A DNA stretch of 37,045 bases from Deltaproteobacteria bacterium. Lineage in GTDB: Bacteria > Desulfobacterota > JADFVX01. The DNA is taken from positions 1 through 37,045 of the forward strand of contig JAOUBX010000044.1 in NCBI GenBank assembly GCA_029860075.1, given 5' to 3'. The notes beneath the pieces are model-generated. The model was not told the DNA's origin. It saw only the letters and a program-made list of their open reading frames with translations, and did no database searches. The translations under genes and the position numbers were made by a program. Each line of letters opens with the position of its first letter. The first letter of the stretch is position 1. Positions 4,302 through 23,121 of this stretch are shown here, in pieces.

Positions 4302-4476
4302 TCATGTGATGCTCTACCCATTGAGCTAACCAGTTCCCAATACCGGCCTTTGTCAGATCCCATGTCCGGTACACACAATGTTAATCTTTCAAACAGTGTG
4401 TGCCGCTGGCCCGGCGGTATGAGCTTTTTAAAGAACCTGATAGCGGGCATTTCCGCCATCTCTTGCCTTCTATAAT

Positions 4477-4492: not shown

Positions 4493-4569
4493 ACTTTATA
4501 AAAAAAGCCAAAATACTTCTTAACTATCTGTAATAACGAATATAATTTATTTTTACAGACAATTCTGTC

Positions 4570-4598
4570 TTGACAACTGTTCTCGAATAATGCATATT
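4570..4598 (+). promoter_or_regulatory. Candidate sigma70 promoter for rtcR (-35 TTGACA, 17-bp spacer, -10 CATATT)
   Basis: TTGACA at 4570-4575 and CATATT at 4593-4598, about 37 nt upstream of the rtcR ATG. An adjacent small palindrome cAGACAattcTGTCTt could be an RtcR/autoregulatory site. Sequence match only. Confidence 0.3.
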
Positions 4599-4634
4599 TC
4601 TTATATGTATTTATAAGAAAGTATAAAATTAGAT

Positions 4635-6212: not shown

Positions 6213-6258
6213 AGAGGATGTATCATTGAAAATTATTGAAAACAAACTGATAGTTAAA

Positions 6259-7179
6259 ATGAAGTTCGGTTCTCATCTTTATGGAACAGCAACCTCTCAT
6301 TCGGATGTGGATTACAAAGGTATTTTTCTGCCGACCAGGGAAGAAGTTCTTCTCGGTAAAATAGCGAAATGTCATAGCTACACCTCGGGAGAGGAGGGTG
6401 CAAAAAATACGAAGGATGATATTGATATTGAACTCTATTCTCTTCATTTTTTTATTAAGCTCGCCTGTGATGGTCAGACCGTTGCCATGGATATGCTTCA
6501 TGCCCCTCAAGATATGTTGATTGAATCGTCGCCCATCTGGGTTGATATTGTTAATAATCGAGAGAAATTCTATACTAAAAACCTTAAATCCTTCATTAAT
6601 TATGCCCGCCGTCAGGCAAGCAAGTATGGTATTAAAGGTTCCAGGTTGAGTGCTGTGAGAACCATTCTTGATCTGCTTGAAAAAGAAGATTCTTCAAAAA
6701 AGATGAGGGAAATCTGGCATATGCTCCCCGAGCTTGAACACTGTTATCATGTTGCACCTAATCCCGATGGTATGAGGCAGTATCAGGTATGCGGAAAATA
6801 TTTTCAGGAATCTGCTGCCATCGATTACGTCATCCCCATTTTGCAAAAGTTCAGTAACGATTATGGAGGAAGGGCGAGACAGGCGTCGGAAAATAAAAAT
6901 GTCGACTGGAAGGCTGTTTCTCATGCCTTAAGGTCAGCATATCAGACCAGGGAAATACTGACCTACAAGAGGATTACTTTTCCATTAAAGGAGGCTGAAC
7001 TTTTAAAAAAGGTCAAAGAAGGTAAGATGGATTATATGTCGGAAGTTGCGCCCCTTTTAGAGGATTTAATGGATGAAGTTGAAAGTCTGGTCGCCGAAAG
7101 CTCACTTCCTGAAAAAGTTGATCAGAAGTTCTGGGATGATATTATTTGCAATACCCTGGAGAAAGAGTTGTTTGGATAG
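6259..7179 (+). CDS. Pol-beta-superfamily nucleotidyltransferase (RlaP/COG3541-like, RNA-repair associated), paralogue 1
   Basis: NTase motif GSHLYGTATSHSDVDYKGIF (GS...DxD). The longest ORF starts at 6148 and overlaps rtcR by 65 nt. Alternative in-frame starts are TTG 6226 and ATG 6259, so the start is uncertain. A conserved helical C-terminal half follows. Confidence 0.7.
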   Translation: MKFGSHLYGTATSHSDVDYKGIFLPTREEVLLGKIAKCHSYTSGEEGAKNTKDDIDIELYSLHFFIKLACDGQTVAMDMLHAPQDMLIESSPIWVDIVNNREKFYTKNLKSFINYARRQASKYGIKGSRLSAVRTILDLLEKEDSSKKMREIWHMLPELEHCYHVAPNPDGMRQYQVCGKYFQESAAIDYVIPILQKFSNDYGGRARQASENKNVDWKAVSHALRSAYQTREILTYKRITFPLKEAELLKKVKEGKMDYMSEVAPLLEDLMDEVESLVAESSLPEKVDQKFWDDIICNTLEKELFG

Positions 7180-7185
7180 ATCGAT

Positions 7186-7950
7186 ATGAAAGAAATTATT
7201 ATTAAAGAACTGGAAAAAATTGAAAAAGAGTTTCATGTCAGGATCATCTATGCCTGTGAGTCAGGCAGCCGTGCATGGGGATTCCCATCAATGGACAGTG
7301 ATTATGATGTACGTTTTATCTACGTTCACCCAAGAGACTGGTATCTTTCCATCGGTGAGAGACGGGATGTTATCGAGCGTCCTATCGATAGTGAGCTGGA
7401 TATTGGTGGTTGGGATATTCGAAAGGCCCTCAAGCTCCTGAAAAAATCAAATTCCCCTCTTCTGGAATGGATTTCTTCGCCTATAGTTTACCGTCAGATT
7501 GGGTCCGTTATGGCTCCCTTCAGGGATCTATCGGAAAAGGCTTTTTTGCCTGAATCTTCATTTCACCACTACCTCGCCATGGCGAAAAAGAAGGTGTCTG
7601 AGATGCAGGAGGAAGAGAAGGTTCGTGCTAAAACGGCTTTCTACGCATTGAGGCCACTTTTATGCTGCACATGGATAGTTGAATTTGGAACCCAGCCTCC
7701 AATGAAAATCGATGAACTTCTATCAGTCTTTATTCCCCATGGTGATTTGCGTGATTACCTCGATGAATTAATAGATGAAAAAAGCAGGAACACTGAATCC
7801 TTTCTTATAGAGCCCTGTACTGAATTGGATGACTACCTTGAACTACAGTTGAGTGAGCTTCAGTTGAATGTGCCTAAAAATCCCGAAAAACTTAAAACTG
7901 AAGTTTTTGATGAAGTTTTCAGGGACGTTTTGAGAACGGTTGAAGAATGA
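7186..7950 (+). CDS. Pol-beta-superfamily nucleotidyltransferase (RlaP/COG3541-like), paralogue 2
   Basis: 254 aa with motif ACESGSRAWGFPSMDSDYDVRFIY (GS...DxD), typical of the ~250-aa predicted-nucleotidyltransferase family found in RtcB neighbourhoods. It starts 6 nt after paralogue 1. Confidence 0.7.
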   Translation: MKEIIIKELEKIEKEFHVRIIYACESGSRAWGFPSMDSDYDVRFIYVHPRDWYLSIGERRDVIERPIDSELDIGGWDIRKALKLLKKSNSPLLEWISSPIVYRQIGSVMAPFRDLSEKAFLPESSFHHYLAMAKKKVSEMQEEEKVRAKTAFYALRPLLCCTWIVEFGTQPPMKIDELLSVFIPHGDLRDYLDELIDEKSRNTESFLIEPCTELDDYLELQLSELQLNVPKNPEKLKTEVFDEVFRDVLRTVEE

Positions 7951-8936: not shown

Positions 8937-9539
8937 ATGGCAAGCCAGGCAGAGCGACGTGCCAAGACACGTAACAAAATTATCAAGGCAGCAAAGAAGC
9001 TTTTTGACAAACAGGGTTTTGAATCTACCTCTGTGGACCAGATTGTCAACACTGCCAACGTTGCCAAGGGAACTTTCTACCAGTATTACGACACAAAAAT
9101 TGAAATTCTGGCCGATGTTATCCGTGATGAAGGATCGCAGCAGACCCGTGAGGCTTTGGAAAAAGCCGCTAAGGGTTCACCGGTCATTCCCATTTTGGAA
9201 GCTTATATCCAGACGCTGTGTGAGTGGTTTGAAGGGCATAGCAAGATTGCCGAGGCCTTGATTTTTTCCAGCCTCAAAACGATTGGAGATAAAGAACTTT
9301 GTGATTCACACCGTTACGGTCGCAGCTTTTTGATGGAACTCATGAAGCTGGCGCAAAAGCAAGGGGCTGTGCGTGATGACGTACCGGCGGGAGAACTGGC
9401 AAAAGTACTGGGAGGATCGCTTGCCTTTTCTGTGCTGGCATGGTGCAAGAATCCGCAGCCCCGTGCGCTTGTAGAATCGATGAATCACAGCCTGGAGATA
9501 TTTCTTCATGGCGCGAAAAAGGGGGACTTTAATGACTAA
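8937..9539 (+). CDS. TetR/AcrR-family transcriptional regulator
   Basis: The N-terminal HTH is typical of TetR (RNKIIKAAKKLFDKQGFESTSVDQIVNTANVAKGTFYQYY). Its stop overlaps the next gene's start (ATGACTAA). Confidence 0.85.
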   Translation: MASQAERRAKTRNKIIKAAKKLFDKQGFESTSVDQIVNTANVAKGTFYQYYDTKIEILADVIRDEGSQQTREALEKAAKGSPVIPILEAYIQTLCEWFEGHSKIAEALIFSSLKTIGDKELCDSHRYGRSFLMELMKLAQKQGAVRDDVPAGELAKVLGGSLAFSVLAWCKNPQPRALVESMNHSLEIFLHGAKKGDFND

Positions 9540-12168
9540 GTGGATGATGGATTGGAAGCAGGCTGCTGAGGGTACACGTGAGCAGTGCGGTGGTAAAGGC
9601 TGGAACCTGGCACAACTGCACAATTATGGTTTTCACCTTCCAAAGGGGGGGGTCATAATTACCGATCTCTACGAAGAAATTATCAATACCGGTAAGATCA
9701 AAAATTTTATTGCGTTAATCAAAGACAGGCCTGACAATGAATTCACATCACCCAAACATGCGCTGCTCATAGAACTGAAAGATGAATTCCTGAAAGTAAA
9801 ACTCCCCGAGAATTTCAGGGTCGAGCTTGAGGACTTTCTGGCACGCTGCGGTTTAACATCGGAGGCGATAGCTGTCAGATCCAGTGGTACCCTGGAAGAT
9901 GGAAGTGAAAACTCCTTTGCCGGTATTCATGACAGTTTTCTTAATGTTATCGGTCTGGAAAATGTGGAGTCGGCAATTCTTAAATGCTACGCCTCGCTCT
10001 GGTCGGCCCGTGCTATCAGCTATCGGCGAAAAATGAACATCAGTGACGACGCTATTTCTGCTGCCCTGGTCATTATGGGAATGGTAAATGCCGAATCGGC
10101 CGGTGTTGCCTTTACCTGCGATCCAGCCACAGGGAGGCGCGATGTGATGGTAATTAATGCTAACTTCGGGTTGGGTGAATCTGTCGTTTCCGGTGTTGCA
10201 GAACCCGATCAATACCGGCTCAACCGCTACCATAAGAAGCTTATTGACCGATATATTGGCAATAAGGAAAAGACCTCCCTTATGAAGGAAGGGGGGGGCA
10301 CGGCGCTTGTCCCTGGAAAGAACAGTCCGGTCCCCTCTTTAACCAATTCCCAGGTCGAACAACTTGCCCGTCTGTGTGACCGGGTATTTCACCTGCTCGG
10401 CAAAGGTGAAGCGCATCAGGATATAGAGTGGGCCTTCGACGGTGATCAGTTTGTGGTATTGCAATCACGTCCCGTAACGGGGATGACTGAAATCATACCG
10501 GCTGAATTGAAGAATCAGCCCCTATGCTGGAGCAACGGTAATTTCCGTGATGCCGTACCCATGGTACTGCCCCGGCTATCGAGTGAATTTTGCGATTATC
10601 ACATCAATGACATTATGCGAAAAAACTTTGATTGCTTAAACTATCCTATCGATCGTGCCGCACGTTTTTCCTGCCAGTTTGAGGGCCGACTTTATTGCAA
10701 CTCATCGCTTGTGCAATGGTTGTGGTATGACACTTTAGGAGTTGAGCCGGAAAAAACCAATATCAGTTTGGGTGGCCATCAGTATGTCATTCATATTGAT
10801 AAAAAATGCAAAAGGAACATAAGAAAGAGGCTTTCAAGAATATGGCGAATGATCCTCTTTGTCAAGGCAATGGCCAGCTATAAGAAGAATGCAAAAAAAA
10901 TCATTGATAGAGAAATAGCATATACAGAGAAATTCAGGGAAAAAGATCTGTCGGCCTTGTCCGATAAAGAACTCATGGAGGCCCTTTCAGGCATTGATTC
11001 ACGACTTGACGACTATAACAGTTCATTTGTCATGCTCTCCTCCGCCTCGGGCGCCCTCTTTATGCTCGTTCAAACACTGGAAAAGTATTTTCACGACAAG
11101 GCCTATTCTCTGGCCAATGCATTGATGGCAGGCATATCAGACATTACCAGTGCAAACCATGGATATGAGTTGCAGGTCCTGGCATCGGTTGCATCAGAGG
11201 ACGAAGAGGCTAAGCTTTTTTTTGGATCGAACCCTTTTGAGCCGCATCTATGGCAAGAAGCGCTAAGGGAAAGCTCCCCTTTCAGGCAAGCCTTTAAAAA
11301 CTATCTCCGGGAATATGGTCATCGCGCCATTTATGAAATGGATGTGACGCAACCCCGCTGGCGTGAAACACCTGATTACCTCTTAAAATGCATCAGCAAC
11401 TACCTGAGCGCAGGATCTCTGTCGAAAATGGAGGACAAAGGAAAGCAGGCATCAGATGAGGCATGGCGGGAAATAAAAGAGAAAGTGCCCCGCTACATGC
11501 ACCGATATATCAAAAACAGTCTCAAACAGGCAGCCAAGGGGGCCGCATTAAGGGAAATGGGAAAATCAACCTATGCAAGGCACATGGAGATATTGAGATA
11601 CCTCCTTCTGGAGATGGCTAATCGATTGAAAAAAAGAAATCTCATAGAAAGTGAAAATGATATTTTTCACTGTGCCAGGGCTGAAATCATTGCTGTCTTA
11701 AAGGGGGAGTGGCATGGGAGGAACTTAAAGGAGATAGTGCTGGAACGCAAAGAAATCAAGTCAAAACAGGAAGAGCTACCGGCTCCGGACATACTGATCG
11801 ATGATAAGCCAAAACAGGTGTCCCATGACTTAGAAACTGCCGAAAAGGGGCTGAAAGGCATCGGCGTCGCGGCAGGTATCGCAAAAGGCACGGCCCGCCT
11901 TATTGCATCACCCGATGAAGGGCATCGACTAACCCCAGACGATATTCTTGTAGCACCCTCAACGGACCCTTCATGGACGCCGCTTTTTCTCAACGTCTCT
12001 GCCATCGTCATGGAGACCGGCGGTTATCTCTCACATGGCGCTATTGTTGCCAGAGAGTATGGCATCCCGGCTGTCGTAAACGTTCCCGGAGCCATGCGCT
12101 TGATTAAGGAAGGGGAAAAAGTGGAGATAAACGGCGGCCTGGGTCTTGTCAGAAAGATAAAATGTTAA
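9532..12168 (+). CDS. PEP-utilising enzyme of the PEP-synthase/rifampin-phosphotransferase (RPH) type: N-terminal PPDK_N ATP-grasp + C-terminal phospho-His swivel domain
   Basis: The N-terminus (CGGKGWNLAQL) matches the pyruvate-phosphate-dikinase nucleotide-binding domain. The extreme C-terminus has the PEP-utilisers mobile-domain motif (GGYLSHGAIVAREYGIPAVV). The longest ORF starts at 9508, but Met 9532 has a GGGGGAC RBS and is translationally coupled to tetR. Confidence 0.8.
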   Translation: MTKWMMDWKQAAEGTREQCGGKGWNLAQLHNYGFHLPKGGVIITDLYEEIINTGKIKNFIALIKDRPDNEFTSPKHALLIELKDEFLKVKLPENFRVELEDFLARCGLTSEAIAVRSSGTLEDGSENSFAGIHDSFLNVIGLENVESAILKCYASLWSARAISYRRKMNISDDAISAALVIMGMVNAESAGVAFTCDPATGRRDVMVINANFGLGESVVSGVAEPDQYRLNRYHKKLIDRYIGNKEKTSLMKEGGGTALVPGKNSPVPSLTNSQVEQLARLCDRVFHLLGKGEAHQDIEWAFDGDQFVVLQSRPVTGMTEIIPAELKNQPLCWSNGNFRDAVPMVLPRLSSEFCDYHINDIMRKNFDCLNYPIDRAARFSCQFEGRLYCNSSLVQWLWYDTLGVEPEKTNISLGGHQYVIHIDKKCKRNIRKRLSRIWRMILFVKAMASYKKNAKKIIDREIAYTEKFREKDLSALSDKELMEALSGIDSRLDDYNSSFVMLSSASGALFMLVQTLEKYFHDKAYSLANALMAGISDITSANHGYELQVLASVASEDEEAKLFFGSNPFEPHLWQEALRESSPFRQAFKNYLREYGHRAIYEMDVTQPRWRETPDYLLKCISNYLSAGSLSKMEDKGKQASDEAWREIKEKVPRYMHRYIKNSLKQAAKGAALREMGKSTYARHMEILRYLLLEMANRLKKRNLIESENDIFHCARAEIIAVLKGEWHGRNLKEIVLERKEIKSKQEELPAPDILIDDKPKQVSHDLETAEKGLKGIGVAAGIAKGTARLIASPDEGHRLTPDDILVAPSTDPSWTPLFLNVSAIVMETGGYLSHGAIVAREYGIPAVVNVPGAMRLIKEGEKVEINGGLGLVRKIKC

Positions 12169-13421
12169 AGTTTCTTAAATACATATCTCCAGTACTGTTT
12201 ATTTTTCCAGTTATAGTATTTATTTCCGATGCCCATGCCATTGAGCGCCGCCGTAACCAGTTTCTTGATGAGCAGGGTTATTATGTCTTTATTACGCCTT
12301 ACAGCCTGCCCGGTATAGGAGGTGGTGCGGGTCTGGTGGGCGCCGTGTCCAATGTGGCCAACAGTTATACCGACCTCTATACCTATATCCTTGATGGTGA
12401 TCTGGAGGGAGGTGGTTTTGCGATTTCTGACGTTCATATCCTTTCTAAAAGACTCGTCTTTGATCTGACGGGTTCAAAGTTCAGAAAGATCATAATTTAA
12501 AGGTTTAACACACGCGGTATTGGTGGTGATGAAGATGACTATACCTTGCTCGAACTGGATGAAAACGATTTCCTCGGTGCCAGGCTGACAAGTATTTTTT
12601 TCGATCGTATGCTGGAATTCTATGTAATGGGCTATGACGGTAAATGGCATACATCCAAACTGCGTGATTCCCATGGGAATGTAACGCAAGACCTTAAAGA
12701 CAGTGATACTCTGGATTACGGTGTAGGTGTTGTTGGCATGCGTATCGATTACACCGATGATTACCAGAATCCCCGTGTAGGGCTTCGTTTTGATTTTAAT
12801 GCCAGAGAGATGACTAAACGGGAAAAGTATCTTCCCGATCAGTATGTAATGCAATACAGTTTGACAGGTTACATCCCTTTCAGGAGGTGGGATACGCTGG
12901 TGCTTAATTATTTTCAGGGTGATTCCGTGGTACGGTCCATAGGAGAAACAGATAGGGCAGAGGTAGAACGGATATATGGTTATAACTGCAGTACCGGCAC
13001 ACCTGCCGAGCAACAGGACTGCAATGATGTAATCGATACCATTATCGACGGTAATCGCTATGGTACGGCCGGAGGGTTGGGTGGTACGAGCCGTCTGCGC
13101 GCCTATCCCATGGACCGCTACCAGGGCGCTCATATCCGCTTTATCGGCGTGGAGTATCGTTGGAATATTACGGAGGAATCGACCCCCTTTAATATCTGGA
13201 TTGCAAAAGATATACGTACATCCTTCCAGATGGCTTTTTTTTACGAAATGGGCATGGTAGCTGATAGCAGGAGCAACCTTTACGACAAGTATCGCTCCAA
13301 TACCGGGTTAGGCTTCAGGATGGTAACGGAAGGCGGTTTTGTTATTCGCGGTGATGTTGCTACAGGCCGCGAAGGGCCAGGTGTCAGTATTATTATCGGT
13401 TATCCCTGGGAGTCATTTTAA
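12162..13421 (+). pseudogene. Outer-membrane beta-barrel protein (Omp85/surface-antigen-like C-terminus) interrupted by an in-frame TAA at 12498-12500
   Basis: ORF 12162..12500 has a signal peptide (MLKFLKYISPVLFIFPVIVFISDAHA). ORF 12546..13421 is in the same frame and has no ATG or signal peptide of its own. It has alternating amphipathic beta-strands and a C-terminal aromatic end (IIIGYPWESF). The intervening 15 codons are open. This is a single nonsense codon, or else readthrough or a sequencing error. Confidence 0.5.
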
Positions 13422-13794
13422 GTTGAAAAATTCATCTGCTCCTATTGACTCATTAGAAAATGTTGCCAAAGGTATAGCCCTGTAAAGTGGGTACGAACTT
13501 TGTGCCCACGCGGTAGAAAAAAGGGGGTGAAAAAATGGGAACAGGTTGGCTTATTCTAACAAAACTAACCCTTGCCATGTTTATCCAGAAAAGCATTTAC
13601 AAAGGTAGTCGCTTAAGGTATAAAAAATAATCAAACTTTTTGTGGAAAAAGAAATGGGGAAAGAGAAAAAAACAGAAAGCCCGGATCGGTAACGGTTTCG
13701 GGACTTTTTATGGATAAGACTGGTTGAAACAGTCGCTTTCCCTATTAATTTAACTGAGTAAAACCAATATATATTAAGAAATGAAGATTGCGAT

Positions 13795-16700
13795 ATGAAA
13801 CAAGACATGCTTCAAGCAGTAATTGAGCAGCTCGATTTTAGCAATGGACAGCTCTTTAGCACTGTAGAAGTCTCTCGTGGATCGCTTAGCCGGAAGGATT
13901 GGCTGGACAAAGGAGATTGGCTTCTTTCTGCCCAAAAAGCTGGAGTGGAGTATATCTTTTTTGTTGAGAACAACCCCGTTGCAGTTTTTGCACGGAGCAA
14001 AAAGTCAGATGAAGAGAAAATTGCAGTTTTCAATAAAATTTGGTGTTTGGCACGACCTCGCCTTCTATTTCTGGAATCAGAAGGTGAGCTTTCTGTTATA
14101 GACCTGGCACAAGCCCCGATACGGCAAGAATGGAACGTCGATAAACAAAAACTTACCGCATTAGAGATATTGACATCCGTTGAGAAGGTTGCACGTAAAT
14201 TACAAAAATATCACCGTGACAATATTGAAACAGGCAAGGTCTTTGAGCATGGACGATTTGGTGATTTAAAACATCGGGCCGATCAGGCGTTGATTGCTGA
14301 CTTGAGGACCGTCAGGGGTGAATTGATGCAGGCAGGCCTTCACGGTCCCAAAATGCAATATGCCCATGCTCTAATCGGACGATCCATATTTATTCGTTAT
14401 CTGGAAGACCGGGGCATTTTAACTGAAGAGTATTTTTCTAAAGTTGCTGGATCAAATCCGACATGGCAGACACTATTACAAAATCCTTATTCACGTGACC
14501 AAATGGATTTCTCCGGCGTTAAAGCAAAATATCCACGTGTACTTCAGGATAAGGATTTTACTTATGCATTATTCCGCATGCTCTCGATAGATTTTAATGG
14601 AGATATGTTTCCTGACATTGATGAGGAAGAAAAAAATATTGAGGGCAGGCACCTGCAACTCATACAAGAACTTTTATATGGTGATGTTGGCTCTCAGAAA
14701 AAGCTGTTTTTTTACTCCTATAAGTTCGATATCATCCCGCTCGATCTGATCAGTGCGATCTATGAGGAATTTTACCATGCATCAGCAAGTGCGAACGAAA
14801 AAAAGAGCAAGGCACGGCAAGACGGAGCTTACTACACCCCGCCGGCACTGGCCGAATTCGTTCTGTCAAGAATACTGACTGATGAAGTGTTACAGAAAAA
14901 TCCGAGAATACTAGATCCGGCATGTGGCTCCGGGATATTTCTGGTTGAAGCATTCCGTCGAGTTGTTCGTTATCGGCTATATCAAAAGAAATCTTCTCTA
15001 CATTTCAGCGAATTGAAGGAAATACTCGGAAGGCAGATTGCAGGCATTGAGGTCAATGAAGAAGCAGCCCGAATCACCGCATTCAGCTTATACCTTGCCA
15101 TGCTGCACTATCTGGATCCACCATCCATTTTTGAACACATCCTGAATGGAGATAAACTGCCAAACCTGATTATGTCAGCGAATGAGTTAGACAATCATTA
15201 CAACAGCATCCATGTGGCTAATGCGTTTGCTCTCGACAATAAAAACGTAGGAGAAATTGATGTTGTGGTGGGCAATCCTCCATGGGGTGCGCCCAATAAT
15301 CCAAGTAAGGGTGCCAAAGATCGTCAGCGCATCATGCTGGACTGGTGCAAAAAAAGAAAATACCCCATTGGAGACAACGAACCATCCCAGGCTTTTCTTT
15401 GGCGATCGCTGGATTTCCTGAATAAAGAAGGCCGGTGCGCCTTGTTGACCTCTGCTGGGGTTCTTTTCAACCATAGTTCAACCACACAGACGTTCCGCCG
15501 AGAATGGATGAGCAGAGTTTGCATTACGGAAGTATTCAACTTCTCTCATGTGCGGAAATTCTTCTTCAAGGGAGCAGATTCTCCTTTTGTGATGATTCAT
15601 TTCAAGAATGGTGAACAAGGTAAAACTCCGGTTGAATACTGGTCCCTAAAACAGGTGGCTTCACTTAAGGAAACACAAGCAATCCTGCTGTCGAAATATG
15701 ATCGAGCTTATTTGACGGGACAAGACCTGACCGACAATAAAACATGGAAAGCTAATTGGTTCGGTAGACATGCGGATACAGTGTTTTTTCATCAGTTTCA
15801 TAATTTTAAAACATTATTAGATCACATAGATAGGAGATTCTCAGGCCAAGGGATATCACCCAATCCTCCCCAAAAAGCTACAGACGATTTGCCAAGAAAT
15901 TTATTGGTACAATCTTCATTTAGTCGTTTCAATGATTCTCTACAGTTTAAAAATTTACCCCTGCGTGTATACAGACTAGGAAAAATAGAAACATATACTG
16001 GCCCACGTTTATTAATTAAAAGAGGTATATCCGAAAAGGGGGAGACAAAAGGTACTGTTGTTGCCAGATATGAATCTAAGAATTTTTGTTTTACAAACGC
16101 AATTAATGGAATCAAATTAATCAATAATGAAGAAACACAATATTTACTTTTTCTTGGTATCTTGTGGTCATCATTCAGTAGATATTTTTATTTCAATATC
16201 TCAGCAAATTGGGGGTTGTGGCATCATGAAATTCACCTTGATGATGAATTGCTTCAACTCCCCATTCCTAGTCGTCTACGGGGAAAGGAAGCAAACCACG
16301 TTGTCTCCATCGTCAAAAAACTCCGAAACTACCAGCCTCAGGTACAGGACGTATTATATCCTGATGGTGTTCCGCAAAATGAAATCGAATTACAGCGGCG
16401 TAAATGGGAAGCGGAACTTGATGAGGCTGTCTTTGATTTGTACGGTTTTACCAAAGAACAGCAGGATTTGATCCGTGATTGCTGTGAAGTGACTCTGCCA
16501 TTCTTTTATCAGCCTTATAACAGTGTTGGCGCTATGCCAGGAGTAAAAGGCAGTGATACTTCCTGGATAAAACACTATGCTGAACGGTTTGCCCGACGCT
16601 GGCAACCTTATCTGAATCAAGACGAAATTCTGCGGGCTGACCTTCACATTGGCGCGTCCGGTAATATGGTCGCCATAGAATTTTACCCGGCAGACTTGGG

Positions 16701-16959
16701 CGATGAGTGGAATCTATCACCCAAAACAGATTCTTGGGGGCATGTTCTGGAAGAAATCAGCAAGTCATTACCACGTCCCATGGGGACATCTCAAATCCTG
16801 CTTGATGGGATCGTCCATATCGTGACAGATAACAGCATCATAGTTATAAAACGCAACGAGAAACGATTCTGGACACGAAGTCTGGCCTACGAGGATGCTG
16901 AGTCCACATTGGCCAAGCGTATGCTGGAAACAATGCCTGAAAAGAGTGGTGTTGAATAG
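13795..16959 (+). CDS. Large gamma-class N6-adenine DNA methyltransferase (Eco57I/MmeI/PglX-like architecture: N-terminal helical domain, MTase core, C-terminal TRD)
   Basis: 1054 aa with motif I ILDPACGSGIFLVEAF, motif IV VVVGNPPWG and a ~500-aa C-terminal region. No convincing D...ExK nuclease motif is seen in the N-terminal 330 aa. Confidence 0.85.
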   Translation: MKQDMLQAVIEQLDFSNGQLFSTVEVSRGSLSRKDWLDKGDWLLSAQKAGVEYIFFVENNPVAVFARSKKSDEEKIAVFNKIWCLARPRLLFLESEGELSVIDLAQAPIRQEWNVDKQKLTALEILTSVEKVARKLQKYHRDNIETGKVFEHGRFGDLKHRADQALIADLRTVRGELMQAGLHGPKMQYAHALIGRSIFIRYLEDRGILTEEYFSKVAGSNPTWQTLLQNPYSRDQMDFSGVKAKYPRVLQDKDFTYALFRMLSIDFNGDMFPDIDEEEKNIEGRHLQLIQELLYGDVGSQKKLFFYSYKFDIIPLDLISAIYEEFYHASASANEKKSKARQDGAYYTPPALAEFVLSRILTDEVLQKNPRILDPACGSGIFLVEAFRRVVRYRLYQKKSSLHFSELKEILGRQIAGIEVNEEAARITAFSLYLAMLHYLDPPSIFEHILNGDKLPNLIMSANELDNHYNSIHVANAFALDNKNVGEIDVVVGNPPWGAPNNPSKGAKDRQRIMLDWCKKRKYPIGDNEPSQAFLWRSLDFLNKEGRCALLTSAGVLFNHSSTTQTFRREWMSRVCITEVFNFSHVRKFFFKGADSPFVMIHFKNGEQGKTPVEYWSLKQVASLKETQAILLSKYDRAYLTGQDLTDNKTWKANWFGRHADTVFFHQFHNFKTLLDHIDRRFSGQGISPNPPQKATDDLPRNLLVQSSFSRFNDSLQFKNLPLRVYRLGKIETYTGPRLLIKRGISEKGETKGTVVARYESKNFCFTNAINGIKLINNEETQYLLFLGILWSSFSRYFYFNISANWGLWHHEIHLDDELLQLPIPSRLRGKEANHVVSIVKKLRNYQPQVQDVLYPDGVPQNEIELQRRKWEAELDEAVFDLYGFTKEQQDLIRDCCEVTLPFFYQPYNSVGAMPGVKGSDTSWIKHYAERFARRWQPYLNQDEILRADLHIGASGNMVAIEFYPADLGDEWNLSPKTDSWGHVLEEISKSLPRPMGTSQILLDGIVHIVTDNSIIVIKRNEKRFWTRSLAYEDAESTLAKRMLETMPEKSGVE

Positions 16960-17627
16960 TGGCCAGAAAAACACGAAAAATTGGTGGGTTTGCTCAGCTA
17001 TGGCAGCGACATGAAAATCTCTATCATTCTATATGCTGCAATGCTCTTGCACAGCTTATTATTACCGATGATCAGCGTAAGGATGAGGATGCCATATCCG
17101 AAGCGCTTTGCCCAATCTTACTACAGGTGTGCTTCAGTCATCCTGATAAACCAAAGCCCCCTGAATGGGAACTTCCGATTGCGCCCGTAAGTAGTGTTGA
17201 CCTTAAAGGAGGTAAAGTCCGAAAGCGTCCGGATTTTACCTGCACACTTGTAAACACATTTGCCGATTCCTGCGAGATGTATGCAATAGCTCTTCACATC
17301 GAATGTAAGCGGCTGGGCAAAAAAATTGGCTCATGGGACCTTAATAAAAACTACATCGAAAATGGTGTGAATCGCTTTGACTCCAGAACACATGAATACG
17401 GCAAATATGCACCATGCGGGATAATGATAGGATACATCGTAAATTCAGAAAAGAATGATGTTCTTAATGATGTCAATAGTCGTTTGCCGTCAACAATATC
17501 GGCACTTAAGTTTTCTTTCGCTACAAAAGTTGAACATTGCGATTCTTTATTCAACCGTAACTGCGTTGCTCCAAAGCAATTCAAACTGATTCATATCTGG
17601 GTAGATTTAACTGGTAACGCTCAATAA
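16959..17627 (+). CDS. Putative PD-(D/E)xK nuclease, translationally coupled to the methyltransferase (candidate restriction component)
   Basis: 222 aa. GTG start overlaps the MTase TAG (taGTG). The sequence RPDFTCTL...x...IALHIECKR gives a PD-x23-E-C-K motif. There is no other recognisable domain. Confidence 0.45.
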   Translation: MARKTRKIGGFAQLWQRHENLYHSICCNALAQLIITDDQRKDEDAISEALCPILLQVCFSHPDKPKPPEWELPIAPVSSVDLKGGKVRKRPDFTCTLVNTFADSCEMYAIALHIECKRLGKKIGSWDLNKNYIENGVNRFDSRTHEYGKYAPCGIMIGYIVNSEKNDVLNDVNSRLPSTISALKFSFATKVEHCDSLFNRNCVAPKQFKLIHIWVDLTGNAQ

Positions 17628-17828
17628 ATGAAATAAGTGTGGGGAAAAGGGGACAAAGGTTCTCTTCAAAGCATTAACGGCGCACCTCTTTAAGAAGTAC
17701 GCCGTTTTTTATGTAGTGAAAATCTATATTCATGAAGCCAGGAAAGGTATTAAGCTTTAAAACACAAAAAAAGGGTGGGCATAATGCCTACCCTCTTGTT
17801 ATTAGAAAGGTCTTTTTTTCTCTCTATC

Positions 17829-18284
17829 TTATGAGTGAACCAAATACTCCAGTTCAGAACCACTGATCTGGTGGAAGTTGAGATATTTGTAGATTCTGTC
17901 CGTTGCATCAGCGGTAATCTTCTTGGGAACGATCTCCATATATTCACTTGCTGATGGAAGACGGCCAAGCATGGCAGTAACAGCGGCAAGCTCGGCGCTA
18001 CCGAGGTAAACCTGTGTACCTGTTCCAAGCCTGTTGTTGAAGTTTCTTGTTGATGTTGAGAATACGATTGTGTTGTCGCCAACTCTTGCCTGGTTACCCA
18101 TGCAAAGTGAACAACCCGGGATCTCTGTTCTTGCACCTGCAGCGCCATAGATAGAGTAGTAACCCTCCTGCTGTAGCGTTTTCTCATCCATTTTTGTTGG
18201 AGGACAAATCCACAGTTTTGTTGGAACCTGACCTTCACCTTGCAGTACTTCACCAAGCGCTCTGAAGAGACCGATATTTGTCAT
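17829..18284 (-). pseudogene. Orphan 3' fragment of aconitase B (last 151 codons) with its own copy of the terminator hairpin
   Basis: The protein is 148/151 identical to the C-terminus of the 853-aa AcnB at 20560..23121. Nucleotide identity is only ~90% (rough by-eye estimate), with mostly synonymous changes. The repeat spans 17757..18316, including a degenerate copy of the acnB terminator (gggtgggcataatgcctaccc). Confidence 0.85.
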
Positions 18285-18452
18285 ACAGCTTCCGACAAAT
18301 ACTTCATCGATCTTTTAGTTGACAGCTTTCTTTATCACTCTTATTATACGATTAGAATGAATGATGAATACGGTGCTTTAAGTAAAGCTTATTTTAAAGC
18401 ATAAACATTCATTTCCCATCTTTCACTTTAATCTGAATAAAAGGAGTGCCCT

Positions 18453-19163
18453 GTGGATAAAATTCTTCTCGTTGATGATTCCGAATTTTTTATTGTTTTA
18501 ATCAAGTCACTTCTCGATGCCAGAGGCTGTAATGTTCTGACGGCTACTGACCCGAAAGAAGCACTTCAAATTCTCAAACAAGAAAAACCCAAGCTCATAC
18601 TTCTTGATCAGTACATGCCTGACATGACAGGGGATGAATTTTGCAGGAAAGTAAAAGAGAATGAGGACACGAAAGATATTGCCGTAATTATGCTGACTGT
18701 TTCCGATAAAGAGGAAGACAGAGAAAAATGTTTTGCCGCAGGTTGTGATGAATTCATTACCAAGCCAATATGCAAGGAAGAGTTCCTTGCTGTCATATCA
18801 AAGTACATACAAATCTATGAGCGAAAACAGGAGAGATATCCCATCTATGAAAGCATGAAATATCACCTTAATGGTGTTGAATATTCAGGTCATGTTCACT
18901 CTGTCAGTCAAAGAGGCTGTTTTATCATGGGAGAGGAAATGCTTAGCGAGGATACTCTCATTACATTAAAGTTTCCCATCTCCAAAGTGCACGACGAGGT
19001 CAATGTGATAGGAAAAGTGGTCTGGAATTTCGATTCAAAAAAAGAGAAATTTCCGCACATCCCGGAATCAGGTCATGGTATGGGCATCCAATTCATTGAA
19101 ATCAGTGAAGAGGATGAAGAGGCCATTGCTAAATATATAGCCCTCGGTGATTTTGTAGTATAA
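18453..19163 (+). CDS. Response regulator with CheY-like receiver and C-terminal PilZ (c-di-GMP-binding-like) domain
   Basis: Receiver motifs are present (LLVDDSEF..., phospho-accepting D in LILLDQYMPDMTG, and K in FITKP). The C-terminal part has PilZ-like VSQRGCFI and GMGIQF motifs. GTG start with an AAGGAG RBS. Confidence 0.75.
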   Translation: MDKILLVDDSEFFIVLIKSLLDARGCNVLTATDPKEALQILKQEKPKLILLDQYMPDMTGDEFCRKVKENEDTKDIAVIMLTVSDKEEDREKCFAAGCDEFITKPICKEEFLAVISKYIQIYERKQERYPIYESMKYHLNGVEYSGHVHSVSQRGCFIMGEEMLSEDTLITLKFPISKVHDEVNVIGKVVWNFDSKKEKFPHIPESGHGMGIQFIEISEEDEEAIAKYIALGDFVV

Positions 19164-19428: not shown

Positions 19429-20346
19429 CTAATGAATTAGAATAAATAGTTCGTTTAAATTTTCTTCGATAATTGAGCCATCTTCATTAATCCAATCAAT
19501 CGAATTCATCGACTCTTTCTGAAATTGTATCTCATAACTGGTTTTTTCCCACTCTTGATCTTCAAGAAAAGTGTGCAGTGAGGAGGATTGGAAATTAATG
19601 ATAATTAATCCATTTTCGTTAGATTTATATTCAGCTTTTGCCAATTTCAATTTTGCCAAGACTTCTTCTCTTTTATCCGTTTTTTCAATAGAAAGGTAAT
19701 ACTCTTTAGGTACACTAACACTGATAAGAGGTATCGCAATTAAAGAATAGATTGATGCAAAGATAATAGATCTTACTGGCCTTGGGCTTGATTCCTCTTC
19801 TTTACTCCCTATTTGATTGTTTGTGATAACAACCGTTCCTGCTATAAAGTCATGCAATGCTCTTTTCTTTTTGTTTAACAGTAATACCATTAATTCACTG
19901 GCATACCATAAATTCTGAATGTAAAAGAGGATATAACTGAAAAGTGTTGTGTTGGAATGTAGGAATACTGACCTGTCATCAAATGACAGGGTAAAGTAAC
20001 TTTGTAAATCGGTGAGTGAAAAAAGAGTTGTCAATAATGATATAAGAAGGATTATGCTGAAAAAAATATCAACGGAATTTCTTAGGATTGCTTCTTTAAA
20101 GGATATTTTACTTCCATCCAATTTCGTTATGCGAATTCTTGCTATTAATTTTCCGGGAGATATTCCATATTTTGCATTAAGAACAACTATAAAAATAGAA
20201 AATGAAAGATAAGTTACAGTTAATATTGAAACTTCTAGAGGAATTGATGGCTGCTCAAATGCCACTATGATTTTATAAAGAATTACAACAAATGAGACAT
20301 CAATTAAAACTGCAAGGAGTCTTCTCCAAAATCCCGCATAAATCAT
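19429..20346 (-). CDS. RDD-family membrane protein with a C-terminal extracytoplasmic domain
   Basis: The N-terminus (YAGFWRRLLAVLIDVSFVVILY) is typical of an RDD domain, with several TM helices and a C-terminal soluble domain. Confidence 0.65.
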   Translation of the reverse strand: MIYAGFWRRLLAVLIDVSFVVILYKIIVAFEQPSIPLEVSILTVTYLSFSIFIVVLNAKYGISPGKLIARIRITKLDGSKISFKEAILRNSVDIFFSIILLISLLTTLFSLTDLQSYFTLSFDDRSVFLHSNTTLFSYILFYIQNLWYASELMVLLLNKKKRALHDFIAGTVVITNNQIGSKEEESSPRPVRSIIFASIYSLIAIPLISVSVPKEYYLSIEKTDKREEVLAKLKLAKAEYKSNENGLIIINFQSSSLHTFLEDQEWEKTSYEIQFQKESMNSIDWINEDGSIIEENLNELFILIH

Positions 20347-20490: not shown

Positions 20491-20524
20491 AAATAAAAAA
20501 AGGGTGGGCATTTAATGCCCACCC
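20491..20524 (-). terminator. Rho-independent terminator of acnB
   Basis: Perfect hairpin gggtgggcat-tta-atgcccaccc at 20502-20524, followed on the minus strand by a U-tract (the + strand A-run at 20491-20501). It lies 36 nt downstream of the acnB stop. Confidence 0.8.
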
Positions 20525-20559
20525 TCTGTTTAATAGAAAGGTCTGTTTTTCTCTCTTTC

Positions 20560-23121
20560 TTAGTGAACCAGGAATTCCAGTTCAGAACCACTGATTTGGT
20601 GGAAGTTGAGATATTTGTAGATTCTATCCGTTGCATCGGCAGTAATTTTCTTGGGAACTATCTCCATGTACTCACTTGCTGATGGGAGACGACCCAGCAT
20701 GGCAGTAACAGCAGCAAGCTCGGCACTACCGAGGTAAACCTGAGCACCTGTTCCAAGTCTGTTGTTGAAGTTTCTTGTCGATGTTGAGAATACGATTGTG
20801 TTGTCACCAACTCTTGCCTGGTTACCCATGCAAAGTGAACAACCCGGGATTTCTGTTCTTGCACCTGCAGCACCATAGATGGAGTAGTAACCCTCTTGCT
20901 GAAGTGTTTTCTCATCCATTTTTGTTGGAGGACAAATCCACAGCTTTGTTGGAACCTGACCTTCACCTTGCAGTACTTCACCAAGCGCTCTGAAGAGACC
21001 GATATTTGTCATACAGCTTCCAACAAATACTTCGTCGATCTTTTCATTTGGTCTCTTGTCATCAGCTAAAATTTCAGTCAGTGTAGCAACATCATCAGGA
21101 TCATTAGGGCAACAGAGAATAGGCTCTGTGATCTCGTTAAGATCGATCTCTATGACAGCTGCATATTCTGCATCAGAATCAGCTTCAAGAAGTTCAGGAT
21201 TTGCGATCCACTCTTTCATCTTATCAGCTCTTCTCTGAAGCGTGTTGGTATCTTCATAGCCTTCAGCAACCATCTGCTCGATAAGTTTGATGTTTGATTC
21301 AAGAAATTCGGTGACAGGCTCTTTATTGAGCTTAACGGTACAGGCGGCAGCACTTCTTTCAGCCGATGCATCAGAAAGTTCAAAAGCCTGCTCACATTTA
21401 AGATCTTCAAGACCTTCGATTTCCATAACACGTCCGGCGAAGATGTTTTTCTTACCCTTTTTTTCTACCGTAAGATGGCCATCCTGGATAGCCTTATAAG
21501 GAATGGCGTTTACAAGGTCTCTAAGGGTGATACCGGGCTGCATTTCTCCTTTGAACCTGACCAGTACCGATTCAGGCATATTGAGAGGCATGCTGCCTGT
21601 AACACCGGCAAATGCTACAAGGCCGGAACCTGCGGGAAATGAGATGCCGATTGGGAATCTTGTATGGCTGTCACCACCGGTACCGACTGTATCAGGAAGA
21701 CAGAACCTGTTGAGCCATGAGTGGATAACACCGTCACCGGGTCTGAGGATAACACCGCTTCTTGAAGTGATAAACTCAGGAAGTGTATGCTGAAGTTTGA
21801 TATCAGCCGGCTTTGGATAGGCTGCCGTGTGACAGAAGGACTGTAAAACAAAATCGGAACCAAAACCGAGAGCGGCAAGTTCCTTGATTTCGTCTCTTGT
21901 CATTGGTCCCGTTGTATCCTGGGAGCCTACCGTTGCAGCGACAGGCTCAACATACATACCCGGTCTTACACCTGCCATACCGCAAGCTTTACCAACCATT
22001 TTCTGTGCCAGAGTATAGCCTTTGCCCGTATCGGCAGGTTGCTCAGGCTGAGCGAACATATCAGATGCGCCCAGGCCCAGCGCTTCTCTTGCTTTGGCAG
22101 TGAGGCCTTTTCCGATGATAAGAGGAATTCTTCCTCCCGCTCTCATCTCGTCAGCCAATGTATTTGGATTGAGTTTAAATGTGTTTACGGTGGAGCCATC
22201 TTTTTCTATGACACCTTCGTAAGGCTTTACAGTGATCACATCACCCGTTTCGAGGTTGGCAACATCAGTCTCGATGGGGAGGCAGCCTGAATCTTCGGCT
22301 GTATTAAAGAAGATAGGAGCGATGGTGTTACCGATAACAATGCCGCCTGTTCTTTTGTTAGGAACACCGGGGATATCTCTACCCATGTGCCACTGAACAG
22401 AGTTGATACCGGATTTTCTACTTGAACCGGTACCTACAACGTCACCAACATAGGCCAGAGGATGACCTTTAGCTTTCAGCTCTTTCATTGTATCGAGAGG
22501 GTTTTCCATCCTTGCAACAAGCATGGAGTTGGCATGTAGCGGGATGTCACTTCTGGTGAAGGCTTCGCTTGCCGGTGAAAGGTCATCTGTGTTTGTCTCA
22601 CCGGGAATCTTGTAGACCGTTACGGTGATCTCTTTTTCCAGTTCAGGCCTGTTTGTAAACCACTCAGCATTGGCCCAGGACTCGATAACCTCTTTAGCCT
22701 TTGCATTGGATGAAGAAAGTTCTACAACGTCATTGAAGGCATCGTAGACCAAAAGGGTGTTTTTAAGTTTATCAGCAGCAAGGTCAGCTACTTCATCAAC
22801 GGTCAGTGCATCGATAAGAGGTTTAACATTGTATCCACCAAGCATCTGGCCCAGTGCATTTACCGCTTCTTCTTTTGATATTGCAGTTGATATATTTCCC
22901 TGTACTACGTCATTTAAAAATGCCGCTTTTACATAGGCCGAGTCATCAACGCCGGGAGCAACGCGTGTAAATAAGAGTTCTTTTAATTTTTCAGTTTCGC
23001 TGTCATTTGCTTTTATCAGTTCGATGACTTCTGCTGTCTGCTCAGGGGTGAGTGGAAGAGGTGGTACATTGAGTGCTGCTCTTTCTTGTACATGTTGATC
23101 ATAGTTTTTTAAAAAATCCAT
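20560..23121 (-). CDS. acnB: Aconitate hydratase B (bifunctional aconitase 2 / 2-methylisocitrate dehydratase)
   Basis: 853 aa, collinear with AcnB (N-terminal HEAT-like region, swivel domain and aconitase catalytic domains, with Cys ligands in the SCMTNIG / GCSLCMGNQ region). Confidence 0.95.

What the first reader, a model, noticed from the sequence alone, without database searches (positions are those of the whole stretch)
13795..17627. Candidate defence system: 1054-aa NPPW adenine methyltransferase translationally coupled to a small PD-(D/E)xK protein
The MTase has the size and domain order of Type IIG/IIL or BREX PglX enzymes, with an N-terminal helical domain, the MTase core and a large TRD. 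Its N-terminus lacks a detectable D...ExK nuclease motif. A separate 222-aa ORF overlaps its stop (taGTG) and carries a PD-x23-ECK motif. This could be an unusual split restriction-modification arrangement with the nuclease supplied in trans, or an uncharacterised MTase-dependent defence pair. The region starts after an AT-rich 370-bp gap and ends just before the orphan acnB fragment, which is consistent with horizontally acquired DNA.
Basis: partly seen in the sequence, partly recalled or inferred. Interest (0 to 1): 0.65.

Follow-up and report, generated by a model that had tools for sequence, protein, structure and literature searches.

The report
Split restriction-modification pair with separate nuclease
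A large DNA adenine methyltransferase whose own nuclease-like domain appears to be dead is always encoded with a small, apparently active nuclease gene overlapping its stop codon; this looks like an undescribed two-subunit form of a restriction-modification defence enzyme that is widespread in bacteria.

Summary
A 1054-aa gamma-class N6-adenine methyltransferase (13795-16959) is followed by a 222-aa ORF (16959-17627) whose GTG start overlaps the TAG stop by one base.

- **Small protein:** it matches no Pfam, NCBIfam, PADLOC or PHROGs family. Its family keeps E43, P91-D92 and E115-C116-K117 almost invariant. Its AlphaFold model is most similar to BamHI, OkrAI and BstYI.
- **Methyltransferase N-terminus:** it has a restriction-endonuclease-like alpha/beta domain with no D...(D/E)xK motif, so it is probably inactive.
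- **Linkage:** it is effectively obligate in both directions. Every nuclease-seeded locus with upstream DNA has the methyltransferase, and 63 of 63 assessable methyltransferase-seeded loci have the nuclease. Distant versions (about 25% identity) lie on plasmids of Clostridium botulinum, Bradyrhizobium, Agrobacterium (pTi) and others.
- **Specificity:** nuclease identity tracks the conserved methyltransferase domains (rho 0.73-0.80) but not the target-recognition domain (rho 0.20). Of 52 pairs with over 80% identical nucleases, 22 have recognition domains under 40% identical. The nuclease therefore probably has no sequence specificity of its own.

Best reading: a split Type IIG/IIL-like restriction-modification enzyme, with a methylase-specificity subunit plus a nuclease acting in trans. 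This is a new variant of a known kind. No enzymatic activity has been tested.

The parts
13422..13794 (.). AT-rich intergenic region upstream of the methyltransferase gene; presumed promoter region
   Evidence: GC 36.7% against 43.8% for the window. No promoter-like site was found here, and the number found in the scanned region (13300-17900) was no higher than in shuffles. No Rfam family or tRNA was found.
13795..16959 (+). Methylase-specificity subunit: 1054-aa gamma-class N6-adenine DNA methyltransferase of Type IIG/IIL-like architecture
   Evidence: ORF. Pfam N6_Mtase 8e-20, Eco57I 1.6e-17, MmeI_Mtase 4e-11. PADLOC REase_MTase_IIG PDLC03603 1.7e-56 over aa 54-802. Best solved-structure match by sequence is DrdV 7lo5, 1.4e-6.
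13795..14199 (+). aa 1-135: N-terminal alpha/beta restriction-endonuclease-like domain without a D...(D/E)xK motif (presumed catalytically dead)
14200..14724 (+). aa 136-310: helical connector resembling the N-terminal helical domain of Type I HsdM, PglX and DrdV
14725..15714 (+). aa 311-640: methyltransferase catalytic domain. Motif X YYTPP is at aa 346-350, motif I DPACGSG at aa 374-380 (nt 14914-14934), and motif IV NPPW at aa 494-497 (nt 15274-15285)
   Evidence: Sequence. D374, G378, G380, N494, P495, P496 and W497 are at least 97% conserved in 98 homologues.
15760..16164 (+). aa 656-790: hypervariable segment, presumed target-recognition domain
   Evidence: Mean pairwise identity 29-37% here against 51-62% in the other domains. 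Its identity is uncoupled from that of the rest of the protein and of the nuclease (rho 0.20-0.24).
16192..16956 (+). aa 800-1054: conserved C-terminal domain, the methyltransferase domain whose divergence tracks the nuclease best (candidate docking surface)
   Evidence: Mean identity 55%. Spearman rho with nuclease identity is 0.80, the highest of the five domains. The ...IIVIKRNEKRFWTRSLA.EDA..T... block is invariant in 6 diverse sequences.
16959..17627 (+). Nuclease subunit: 222-aa stand-alone PD-(D/E)xK protein. Its GTG start overlaps the methyltransferase TAG stop by 1 nt. Catalytic candidates are E43, D92 (nt 17232-17234) and E115-C116-K117 (nt 17301-17309)
17679..17710 (+). Possible weak terminator after the pair (GGCGCAC...GTACGCC followed by G and TTTTTT)
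   Evidence: Read directly from the sequence. The terminator scan did not call it, so this is tentative.

Best explanation
This is a two-subunit, ATP-independent restriction-modification enzyme: a 'split' Type IIG/IIL-like system.

The 1054-aa subunit reads the DNA target through its variable recognition domain. It methylates an adenine there (NPPW, gamma class), which marks host DNA as self. Its own N-terminal nuclease-like domain has lost the catalytic residues.

The 222-aa protein supplies the only PD-(D/E)xK active site. It is made by translational coupling from the same mRNA and has no sequence specificity of its own. It is recruited by the large subunit, probably through that subunit's conserved C-terminal domain and/or its dead nuclease domain. 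It then cuts unmethylated DNA near the bound site. A double-strand break probably needs two copies, either as a BamHI-like dimer or as two complexes.

Shown here:
- The gene pair and its junction.
- Conserved methyltransferase and nuclease motifs.
- The nuclease fold.
- Absence of a nuclease motif in the large subunit.
- Near-obligate two-way linkage of the two genes.
- Recognition-domain swapping while the nuclease stays constant.
- Location in defence and mobile contexts.

Inferred, not shown: physical complex formation, cleavage and its position, methylation, and phage or plasmid restriction.
For: **Linkage**
- 62 nuclease-seeded genome loci from many phyla all have the methyltransferase directly upstream wherever upstream DNA exists.
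- The two apparent exceptions are explained. L069 has a divergent methyltransferase C-terminus. L057 is a decayed copy interrupted by an insertion.
- 63 of 63 assessable methyltransferase-seeded metagenome loci have the nuclease downstream. Junction offsets cluster within a few bases of zero.
- In each of 6 plasmid homologues examined, at 23-26% methyltransferase identity, a 180-238-aa ORF lies directly downstream. That ORF is homologous to the nuclease and keeps D...E(C/A)K.

**Nuclease**
- Restriction-endonuclease fold and invariant catalytic residues.

**Dead N-terminal domain**
-.

**The nuclease does not read the sequence**
- Across 98 pairs, nuclease identity correlates with the N-terminal, helical, methyltransferase and C-terminal domains (rho 0.73-0.80) but not with the recognition domain (rho 0.20).
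- 22 of 52 pairs with more than 80% identical nucleases have recognition domains under 40% identical.

**Defence context**
- Neighbours include Wadjet, Tn7-like elements, Type III RM and type III CRISPR genes.
- The pair is nested between brxC and pglXI of type 3 BREX in at least 6 loci.

**Gene order**
- The methyltransferase comes first and the nuclease is translationally coupled, which fits 'protect before cut'.
Against: - No biochemical, methylome or phage-challenge data exist for any member that I could find.
- Inactivity of the N-terminal domain is inferred from missing motifs. E98 and D103 are 90-99% conserved in the close clade, so an unorthodox active site is not excluded.
- No complex prediction could be run, so the interaction is unproven.
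- The recognition-domain assignment rests on variability and position only.
- REBASE and DefenseFinder were not available, so prior listing of such pairs there cannot be excluded.
Confidence: 0.6

Rival explanations
1. This is an orthodox Type II restriction-modification system. The 222-aa protein is an independent, sequence-specific restriction endonuclease (BamHI-like) that recognises the same site as the large methyltransferase and needs no contact with it.
Against: The nuclease is 80-92% identical between loci whose recognition domains are only 25-36% identical, and nuclease identity is uncorrelated with recognition-domain identity (rho 0.20). Independent Type IIP enzymes would have to change specificity together with the methyltransferase. 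The family is unusually well conserved for restriction endonucleases. The large methyltransferase keeps a vestigial nuclease domain and a conserved C-terminal domain that co-diverges with the nuclease.
Confidence: 0.12
2. The pair is not autonomous. It is an accessory or 'backup effector' module of a larger BREX-type system and needs ATPase or PglZ partners to act. The copy in this window would then be an inactive orphan.
For: The closest relatives (79% nuclease identity, 82% methyltransferase N-terminus identity) lie between brxC and pglXI of type 3 BREX loci, and 7 of 147 loci have a BrxC neighbour. A 2026 survey reports stand-alone PD-(D/E)xK nucleases as frequent auxiliary effectors in BREX loci (PMC12839542).
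Against: About 95% of loci have no BrxC, PglXI or SNF2 neighbour. These include this window and the six plasmid versions examined. Both genes are intact with all motifs in the window. Unrelated defence genes are commonly nested in BREX loci (established knowledge).
Confidence: 0.1
3. The large protein is a complete Type IIG enzyme with an unorthodox but active N-terminal nuclease. The small protein has another role, such as a second-strand nickase (like the small subunit of R.BspD6I), a regulator, or a repair or anti-self-cleavage factor.
Against: There is no D...(D/E)xK arrangement. E98 and D103 are replaced (Q, T, N, K, S, A) in more distant homologues. The small protein keeps a full canonical catalytic set at 99-100%.
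Confidence: 0.1
4. The pair is not a defence system. It is an orphan or regulatory methyltransferase next to an unrelated nuclease (for example a toxin-like or mobile-element maintenance gene), or a post-segregational killing (addiction) module whose main role is to stabilise the element.
For: It occurs on conjugative plasmids and mobile elements. Restriction-modification systems in general can behave as addiction modules (established knowledge).
Against: The strict two-way linkage and overlapping junction argue for one functional unit. Recognition-domain diversification is the signature of an arms race over DNA targets. The neighbours are typical of defence islands. Addiction and defence are not mutually exclusive.
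Confidence: 0.06

Closest known systems
Type IIG / Type IIL restriction-modification enzymes (MmeI, DrdV, BpuSI)
   Same: Same domain order in the large protein: N-terminal nuclease-fold domain, HsdM-like helical connector, gamma-class N6A methyltransferase (NPPW), recognition domain, C-terminal domain. Best profile match is PADLOC REase_MTase_IIG 1.7e-56. Best solved relative is DrdV. Recognition-domain diversification resembles that of the MmeI family.
   Different: Those enzymes are single polypeptides with an active N-terminal D...ExK nuclease. Here the N-terminal domain lacks the motif, and the only canonical active site lies on a separate, obligately linked 222-aa protein from an unrelated sequence family (hhalign probability 0.2% between the two).
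Type III restriction-modification (Mod + Res) and Type I (HsdM/S + HsdR)
   Same: The logic is the same: a methylase-specificity module reads the DNA, and a separate non-specific nuclease subunit is recruited. Recognition-domain swapping changes specificity without changing the nuclease subunit.
   Different: Res and HsdR are large SF2 helicase/ATPase-nuclease fusions. The 222-aa protein has no ATPase, and no ATPase gene lies next to the pair in the window.
Heterodimeric Type IIS endonucleases (R.BspD6I = Nt.BspD6I + small subunit; BtsI; BsrDI)
   Same: A small, non-specific PD-(D/E)xK subunit acts only when bound to a large DNA-recognising subunit. BspD6I subunits appear among the weak structural matches.
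   Different: In those enzymes the large subunit has its own active nuclease and no methyltransferase, and methylation is done by separate enzymes.
BREX PglX/BrxX methyltransferase
   Same: Similar size, helical N-terminal region, gamma-class methyltransferase, recognition domain and C-terminal domain. Some relatives are nested in BREX type 3 loci.
   Different: NCBIfam BREX PglX scores are 27-56 bits against cut-offs of 400-900. No BrxC or PglZ was found among the window's ORFs of 100 aa or more. PglX has no alpha/beta nuclease-like N-terminal domain and no dedicated small nuclease.
Haloferax volcanii HVO_A0006 (PMC4389544)
   Same: A stand-alone 219-aa PD-(D/E)xK protein related to Type IIG enzymes, proposed to complement a nuclease-less Type IIG-like methyltransferase in trans.
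   Different: HVO_A0006 is a fragment of the N-terminus of a Type IIG gene, flanked by transposases and rare. It is not a conserved operon partner. The protein here is a separate family and not an N-terminal fragment.

Membership tests
Type IIG/IIL RM enzymes (MmeI/DrdV/BpuSI-like) | Nuclease, methyltransferase and specificity functions in one polypeptide | tested here: not met
   The only canonical PD-(D/E)xK site is on the separate 222-aa ORF. No fused forms appear among the 150 best family representatives listed.
Type IIG/IIL RM enzymes (MmeI/DrdV/BpuSI-like) | Active N-terminal D...(D/E)xK nuclease motif | tested here: not met
   No invariant acidic or Lys residues in aa 40-110 across 35 diverse homologues. 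E98 and D103 are conserved only in the close clade and are not arranged as a motif.
Type IIG/IIL RM enzymes (MmeI/DrdV/BpuSI-like) | Gamma-class N6-adenine methyltransferase core (motif I, NPP[YFW]) followed by a C-terminal recognition domain | tested here: met
   Pfam N6_Mtase, Eco57I and MmeI_Mtase. PADLOC REase_MTase_IIG 1.7e-56. NPPW and DPACGSG are at least 97% conserved. Variable segment at aa 656-790.
Type IIG/IIL RM enzymes (MmeI/DrdV/BpuSI-like) | Cleavage at a fixed distance from an asymmetric site; one-strand methylation | not testable with these tools
   Needs biochemistry or methylome data.
Orthodox Type II RM (independent R and M) | The endonuclease recognises the target sequence by itself, so its sequence changes with specificity | tested here: not met
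   Nuclease identity is uncoupled from recognition-domain identity (rho 0.20). 22 of 52 near-identical nucleases are paired with recognition domains under 40% identical. This is an inference from comparative data.
Type III RM | Res subunit with SF2 helicase/ATPase motor plus nuclease | tested here: not met
   The 222-aa protein has no ATPase domain in Pfam or NCBIfam, and its model is a single nuclease-fold domain.
BREX (PglX) | PglX equivalog score and co-located brxC and pglZ | tested here: not met
   NCBIfam BREX_1_MTaseX 55.8 bits against cut-off 500, and BREX_2 43.8 against 400. No BrxC or PglZ was seen among the window's ORFs of 100 aa or more; only the seven nearest were profile-scanned.
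MADS (MAD2 methyltransferase) | NCBIfam antiphage_MADS2 equivalog | tested here: not met
   42.3 bits against cut-off 720. PADLOC mad2 gives only 4.6e-22, far weaker than Type IIG.
MANTIS (BREX-related, bioRxiv 10.64898/2026.09.23.753747) | Two ATPases that activate hemimethylation and cleavage (taken from the title; the text could not be opened) | tested here: inconclusive
   The paper could not be read. Term counts show that it mentions BrxC, DUF499 and helicase. No ATPase gene flanks the pair in the window.
PD-(D/E)xK nuclease superfamily (small ORF) | Restriction-endonuclease fold with conserved acidic residues and Lys on the core strands | tested here: met

The most novel reading that the evidence does not exclude
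This pair represents a distinct, previously unclassified architecture of restriction-modification. One polypeptide combines a pseudo-nuclease domain, the methyltransferase and the specificity domain. It obligately partners with a small, motor-less, non-specific PD-(D/E)xK subunit. The dead nuclease domain and/or the conserved C-terminal domain act as the docking and licensing platform. The architecture comprises hundreds of sequence clusters across many bacterial phyla and on Ti-type and C. botulinum plasmids. Current tools score the large subunit as a single-gene 'Type IIG' enzyme and leave the small one unannotated.
Probability: 0.5. Interest if true: 0.72.

Novelty: new variant of a known kind. 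Interest (0 to 1): 0.62.

Why it matters
**Annotation.** If this reading is right, annotation pipelines are misreading a sizeable class of 'Type IIG' or 'N-6 DNA methylase' genes. PADLOC's Type IIG profile is by far the best match to the large subunit, while the real nuclease is an unannotated 'hypothetical protein' with no Pfam, NCBIfam, PADLOC or PHROGs family.

**Evolution.** The system would be a natural intermediate between fused Type IIG/IIL enzymes and multi-subunit Type I/III systems. It would show how a nuclease domain can be retired and replaced in trans.

**Possible uses.** A small non-specific nuclease that is programmed by a swappable recognition domain on a partner protein could be useful for enzyme engineering. 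This would build on the MmeI-family recognition-domain code.

**Experimental access.** Members on C. botulinum plasmids (including pCLK), Agrobacterium pTi and rhizobial plasmids make the hypothesis directly testable in culturable strains.

Tried and rejected
- **Family libraries for the small protein:** Pfam, PADLOC, NCBIfam and PHROGs gave no hit.
- **Solved structures by sequence, using the nuclease family profile:** only noise.
- **Is the small nuclease a duplicate of the methyltransferase N-terminal domain?** hhalign gave probability 0.2%, so this was rejected.
- **tblastn of the small protein against plasmid and phage collections:** no match. Distant plasmid versions were found only through the methyltransferase and then confirmed by profile comparison.
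- **Fusions of the nuclease family to larger proteins:** none among the 150 best listed of 578 clusters.
- **BREX, MADS and Type III membership:** rejected on scores and gene content.
- **MANTIS preprint:** it could not be opened, so only its title and term counts were used.
- **Literature searches:** no paper describing this arrangement was found, whether searching for split or two-subunit Type IIG systems or for the plasmid protein accessions.
- **Fold library:** the afdb50 library was not available.
- **Promoter and terminator scan:** no more sites than in shuffled sequence.
- **RNA genes:** no Rfam family or tRNA in the window.
- **Integration at acnB:** I considered whether the acnB 3' duplication marks integration of the methyltransferase-nuclease pair. 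The repeat brackets the RR-PilZ and RDD genes, not the pair, so this is unresolved.


Full report
**1. Observation**

The window has a 1054-aa ORF at 13795-16959 (+, ATG) and a 222-aa ORF at 16959-17627 (+, GTG). At the junction the sequence reads GAATAGTGGCC, so the TAG stop and the GTG start share one base.

- The large protein carries LDPACGSG (aa 373-380) and GNPPWG (aa 493-498). It hits Pfam N6_Mtase, Eco57I and MmeI_Mtase at aa 317-592.
- The small protein carries P91-D92, then 22 residues, then E115-C116-K117.
- The upstream gap of 373 bp has 36.7% GC.
- The downstream acnB fragment is real.

**2. The small protein**

It matches nothing in Pfam, PADLOC, NCBIfam or PHROGs, and nothing in the PDB by sequence profile. 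It nevertheless belongs to a large family.

- 299 word-indexed hits were found, all unnamed or 'hypothetical'.
- A profile search found 578 clusters at 50% identity with E <= 1e-3. All of the best 150 are stand-alone proteins of 97-293 aa.
- In 98 homologues, E43, E115 and K117 are 100% conserved, and D92 and C116 are 99% conserved.
- An AlphaFold2 model (pLDDT 88, pTM 0.87) places D92 at the start of strand 93-98 and E115/K117 in strand 109-119.

It is therefore a PD-(D/E)xK nuclease with an intact catalytic set and only distant structural relatives.

**3. The large protein**

The best library match is PADLOC's Type IIG REase-MTase profile PDLC03603 (1.7e-56, aa 54-802). BREX PglX and MADS MAD2 models score far below their cut-offs. 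The best solved relative by sequence is the Type IIL enzyme DrdV.

A model of aa 1-340 (pLDDT 83) shows two parts.

In 35 diverse homologues, no acidic or lysine residue in aa 40-110 is invariant. The conserved signature is hydrophobic: FFV-x-NNP-x3-F, W83, RPR and F92. E98 and D103 are 90-99% conserved in the close clade. They do not form a D...(D/E)xK arrangement, and they are replaced in more distant members.

I infer a catalytically dead nuclease-like domain. This is an inference from motif loss, not a demonstration.

**4. Linkage**

- *Seeding with the nuclease.* Five diverse homologues looked up directly, and 62 loci from a scan of one genome per species, all have a 1050-1100-aa methyltransferase homologue directly upstream wherever upstream DNA exists. 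The junction is usually the same 1-nt overlap.
- *Apparent exceptions.* L069's short upstream ORF is a divergent methyltransferase C-terminus (E 1e-9). L057 is a decayed copy with an insertion inside the nuclease gene.
- *Seeding independently with the methyltransferase N-terminal domain in metagenome contigs.* 63 of 63 assessable loci have the nuclease downstream.
- *Distant versions.* At 23-26% methyltransferase identity, all six plasmid homologues examined have a 180-238-aa 'hypothetical protein' directly downstream. The plasmids are B. elkanii pBel61, C. botulinum Loch Maree pCLK, Sagittula p5, M. oryzae pMOC1, B. gladioli bgla_4p and Agrobacterium pTi_CFBP2407.
- These downstream proteins match the nuclease profile: hhalign probability 95-96%, and hmmsearch E from 2.5e-11 to 1e-4 in a six-sequence search. 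They keep D...E(C/A)K.

The pair is a conserved two-gene unit spread over many phyla. These include Desulfobacterota, Planctomycetota, Bacillota, Spirochaetota, Cloacimonadota, Chloroflexota, Acidobacteriota and Pseudomonadota.

**5. Who reads the DNA?**

In the methyltransferase, aa 656-790 is hypervariable. Mean pairwise identity there is 29-37%, against 51-62% elsewhere. Its position is that of the recognition domain in MmeI, DrdV and PglX.

- Over 98 pairs (4753 comparisons), nuclease identity correlates with each conserved methyltransferase domain: rho 0.73 for the N-terminal alpha/beta domain, 0.78 for the helical region, 0.78 for the methyltransferase core, and 0.80 for the C-terminal domain.
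- The correlation with the recognition domain is only 0.20.
- Of 52 pairs whose nucleases are more than 80% identical, 22 have recognition domains under 40% identical. One example is L055/L084, with nuclease identity 90% and recognition-domain identity 27%.

This is the pattern expected for recognition-domain shuffling on a constant nuclease, as in Type I/III systems and the MmeI family. It argues against an independent sequence-specific Type IIP endonuclease.

**6. Context**

In the window the pair stands alone, between an unannotated 291-aa ORF and the acnB fragment. No ATPase, BrxC or PglZ was seen among the window's ORFs of 100 aa or more, of which only the seven nearest were profile-scanned.

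- Its GC3 (37-40%) is lower than that of most flanking genes.
- The closest relatives lie in unrelated contexts. L076/L077 (79% nuclease identity) and L100 (82% methyltransferase N-terminus identity) are nested between brxC and pglXI of type 3 BREX loci. The L076 element also carries ParA and ArdC.
- Other neighbours include Wadjet, Tn7-like elements, Type III RM and type III CRISPR genes.
- Only 7 of 147 loci have BrxC.
- 21 of 147 loci have a LexA/CI-like HTH-S24 gene directly upstream, which may be a controller. It is absent in the window.

The pair therefore behaves as a mobile, self-contained defence-island module.

**7. Mechanism proposed**

I propose a split Type IIG/IIL-like restriction-modification enzyme. 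The large subunit binds its target through the recognition domain and methylates adenine. The small subunit is made in step by translational coupling, docks on the large subunit, and cleaves unmodified DNA near the site.

The candidate docking surfaces are the conserved C-terminal domain, which shows the best co-divergence with the nuclease, and the dead nuclease domain. Given a single active site per small subunit and the BamHI-like fold, double-strand cleavage probably needs dimerisation or two complexes. All enzymatic steps are inferred.

Rival readings are listed with their tests:
- an independent Type IIP endonuclease;
- a BREX accessory module;
- an active but unorthodox N-terminal nuclease plus a second-strand nickase;
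- an addiction module rather than a defence system.

**8. Comparison with known systems**

It works like Type IIG/IIL enzymes in domain order and methyltransferase class. It works like Type III/I systems and heterodimeric Type IIS enzymes in using a non-specific nuclease subunit recruited in trans.

It fails two defining features of Type IIG: a single polypeptide and an active N-terminal nuclease. It lacks the motor of Type I/III. It fails the BREX and MADS model cut-offs.

The only conceptual precedent I found is H. volcanii HVO_A0006 (PMC4389544). That protein is a transposon-flanked fragment of a Type IIG N-terminus, proposed to act in trans. It is not a conserved operon partner.

A 2026 BREX survey notes stand-alone PD-(D/E)xK 'backup effectors' in BREX loci but, in the passages retrieved, does not describe this pair (PMC12839542). 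The MANTIS preprint could not be read. By its title it needs two ATPases, which are absent here.

**9. Verdict**

I rate it a new variant of a known kind, with interest 0.62. The family is widespread and unannotated, and the comparative evidence for a trans-acting non-specific nuclease is strong. It remains within restriction-modification logic, and no experiment backs it yet.

Noticed in passing
window 17760-18315 and 20491-21046: The last roughly 150 codons of acnB plus its terminator hairpin are present twice as a direct repeat (300 nt at 92% identity, and the adjacent 72 nt at 78%). The repeat brackets a response-regulator-PilZ gene (18453-19163) and a 31.5% GC RDD-family gene (19429-20346). 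It looks like the scar of an insertion or recombination at the 3' end of acnB, and the methyltransferase-nuclease pair lies just outside it.
   Followed up: partly
L076 2468-20666; also L100, L030, L034, L059, L137: The closest relatives of the pair are nested inside type 3 BREX loci, between brxC (DUF6079) and the N6_N4 methyltransferase pglXI. In L076 an AAA_15/DUF3696 gene, an SNF2 helicase gene and pglZ lie downstream. The position is recurrent, but this holds for only about 5% of loci.
   Followed up: partly
L055 1733-2392; 21 of 147 related loci: A 216-219-aa HTH(XRE)-S24 peptidase protein (LexA/CI-like) is encoded directly upstream of the methyltransferase in 21 loci. It may be a controller or a damage-responsive regulator of the pair. 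It is absent from the window.
   Followed up: partly
L070 3857-7629, L071 3845-7434, L072-L075: Distant versions of the same two-gene unit lie on plasmids of cultured bacteria: B. elkanii pBel61, C. botulinum Loch Maree pCLK, Sagittula p5, M. oryzae pMOC1, B. gladioli bgla_4p and Agrobacterium pTi_CFBP2407. They are annotated only as 'N-6 DNA methylase' plus 'hypothetical protein'.
   Followed up: yes
window 167-7950: An RNA-repair cluster: rtcB and rtcA on the minus strand, and divergent rtcR followed by two RlaP-family nucleotidyltransferase genes. The first of these (6148-7179) overlaps the end of rtcR.
   Followed up: no
window 8937-12168: A TetR-family regulator gene overlaps the start of an 886-aa PEP-utilising enzyme gene (PPDK_N plus the mobile domain). 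The nearly identical copy in L078 also hits Pfam Rph_4th, a domain whose name suggests a rifampicin-phosphotransferase-like enzyme.
   Followed up: no
L057 1900-6420: A decayed copy of the pair in Peptococcaceae BRH_c4b. The methyltransferase is truncated at its N-terminus, and the nuclease gene is split by about 1.9 kb carrying three reverse-strand ORFs.
   Followed up: partly
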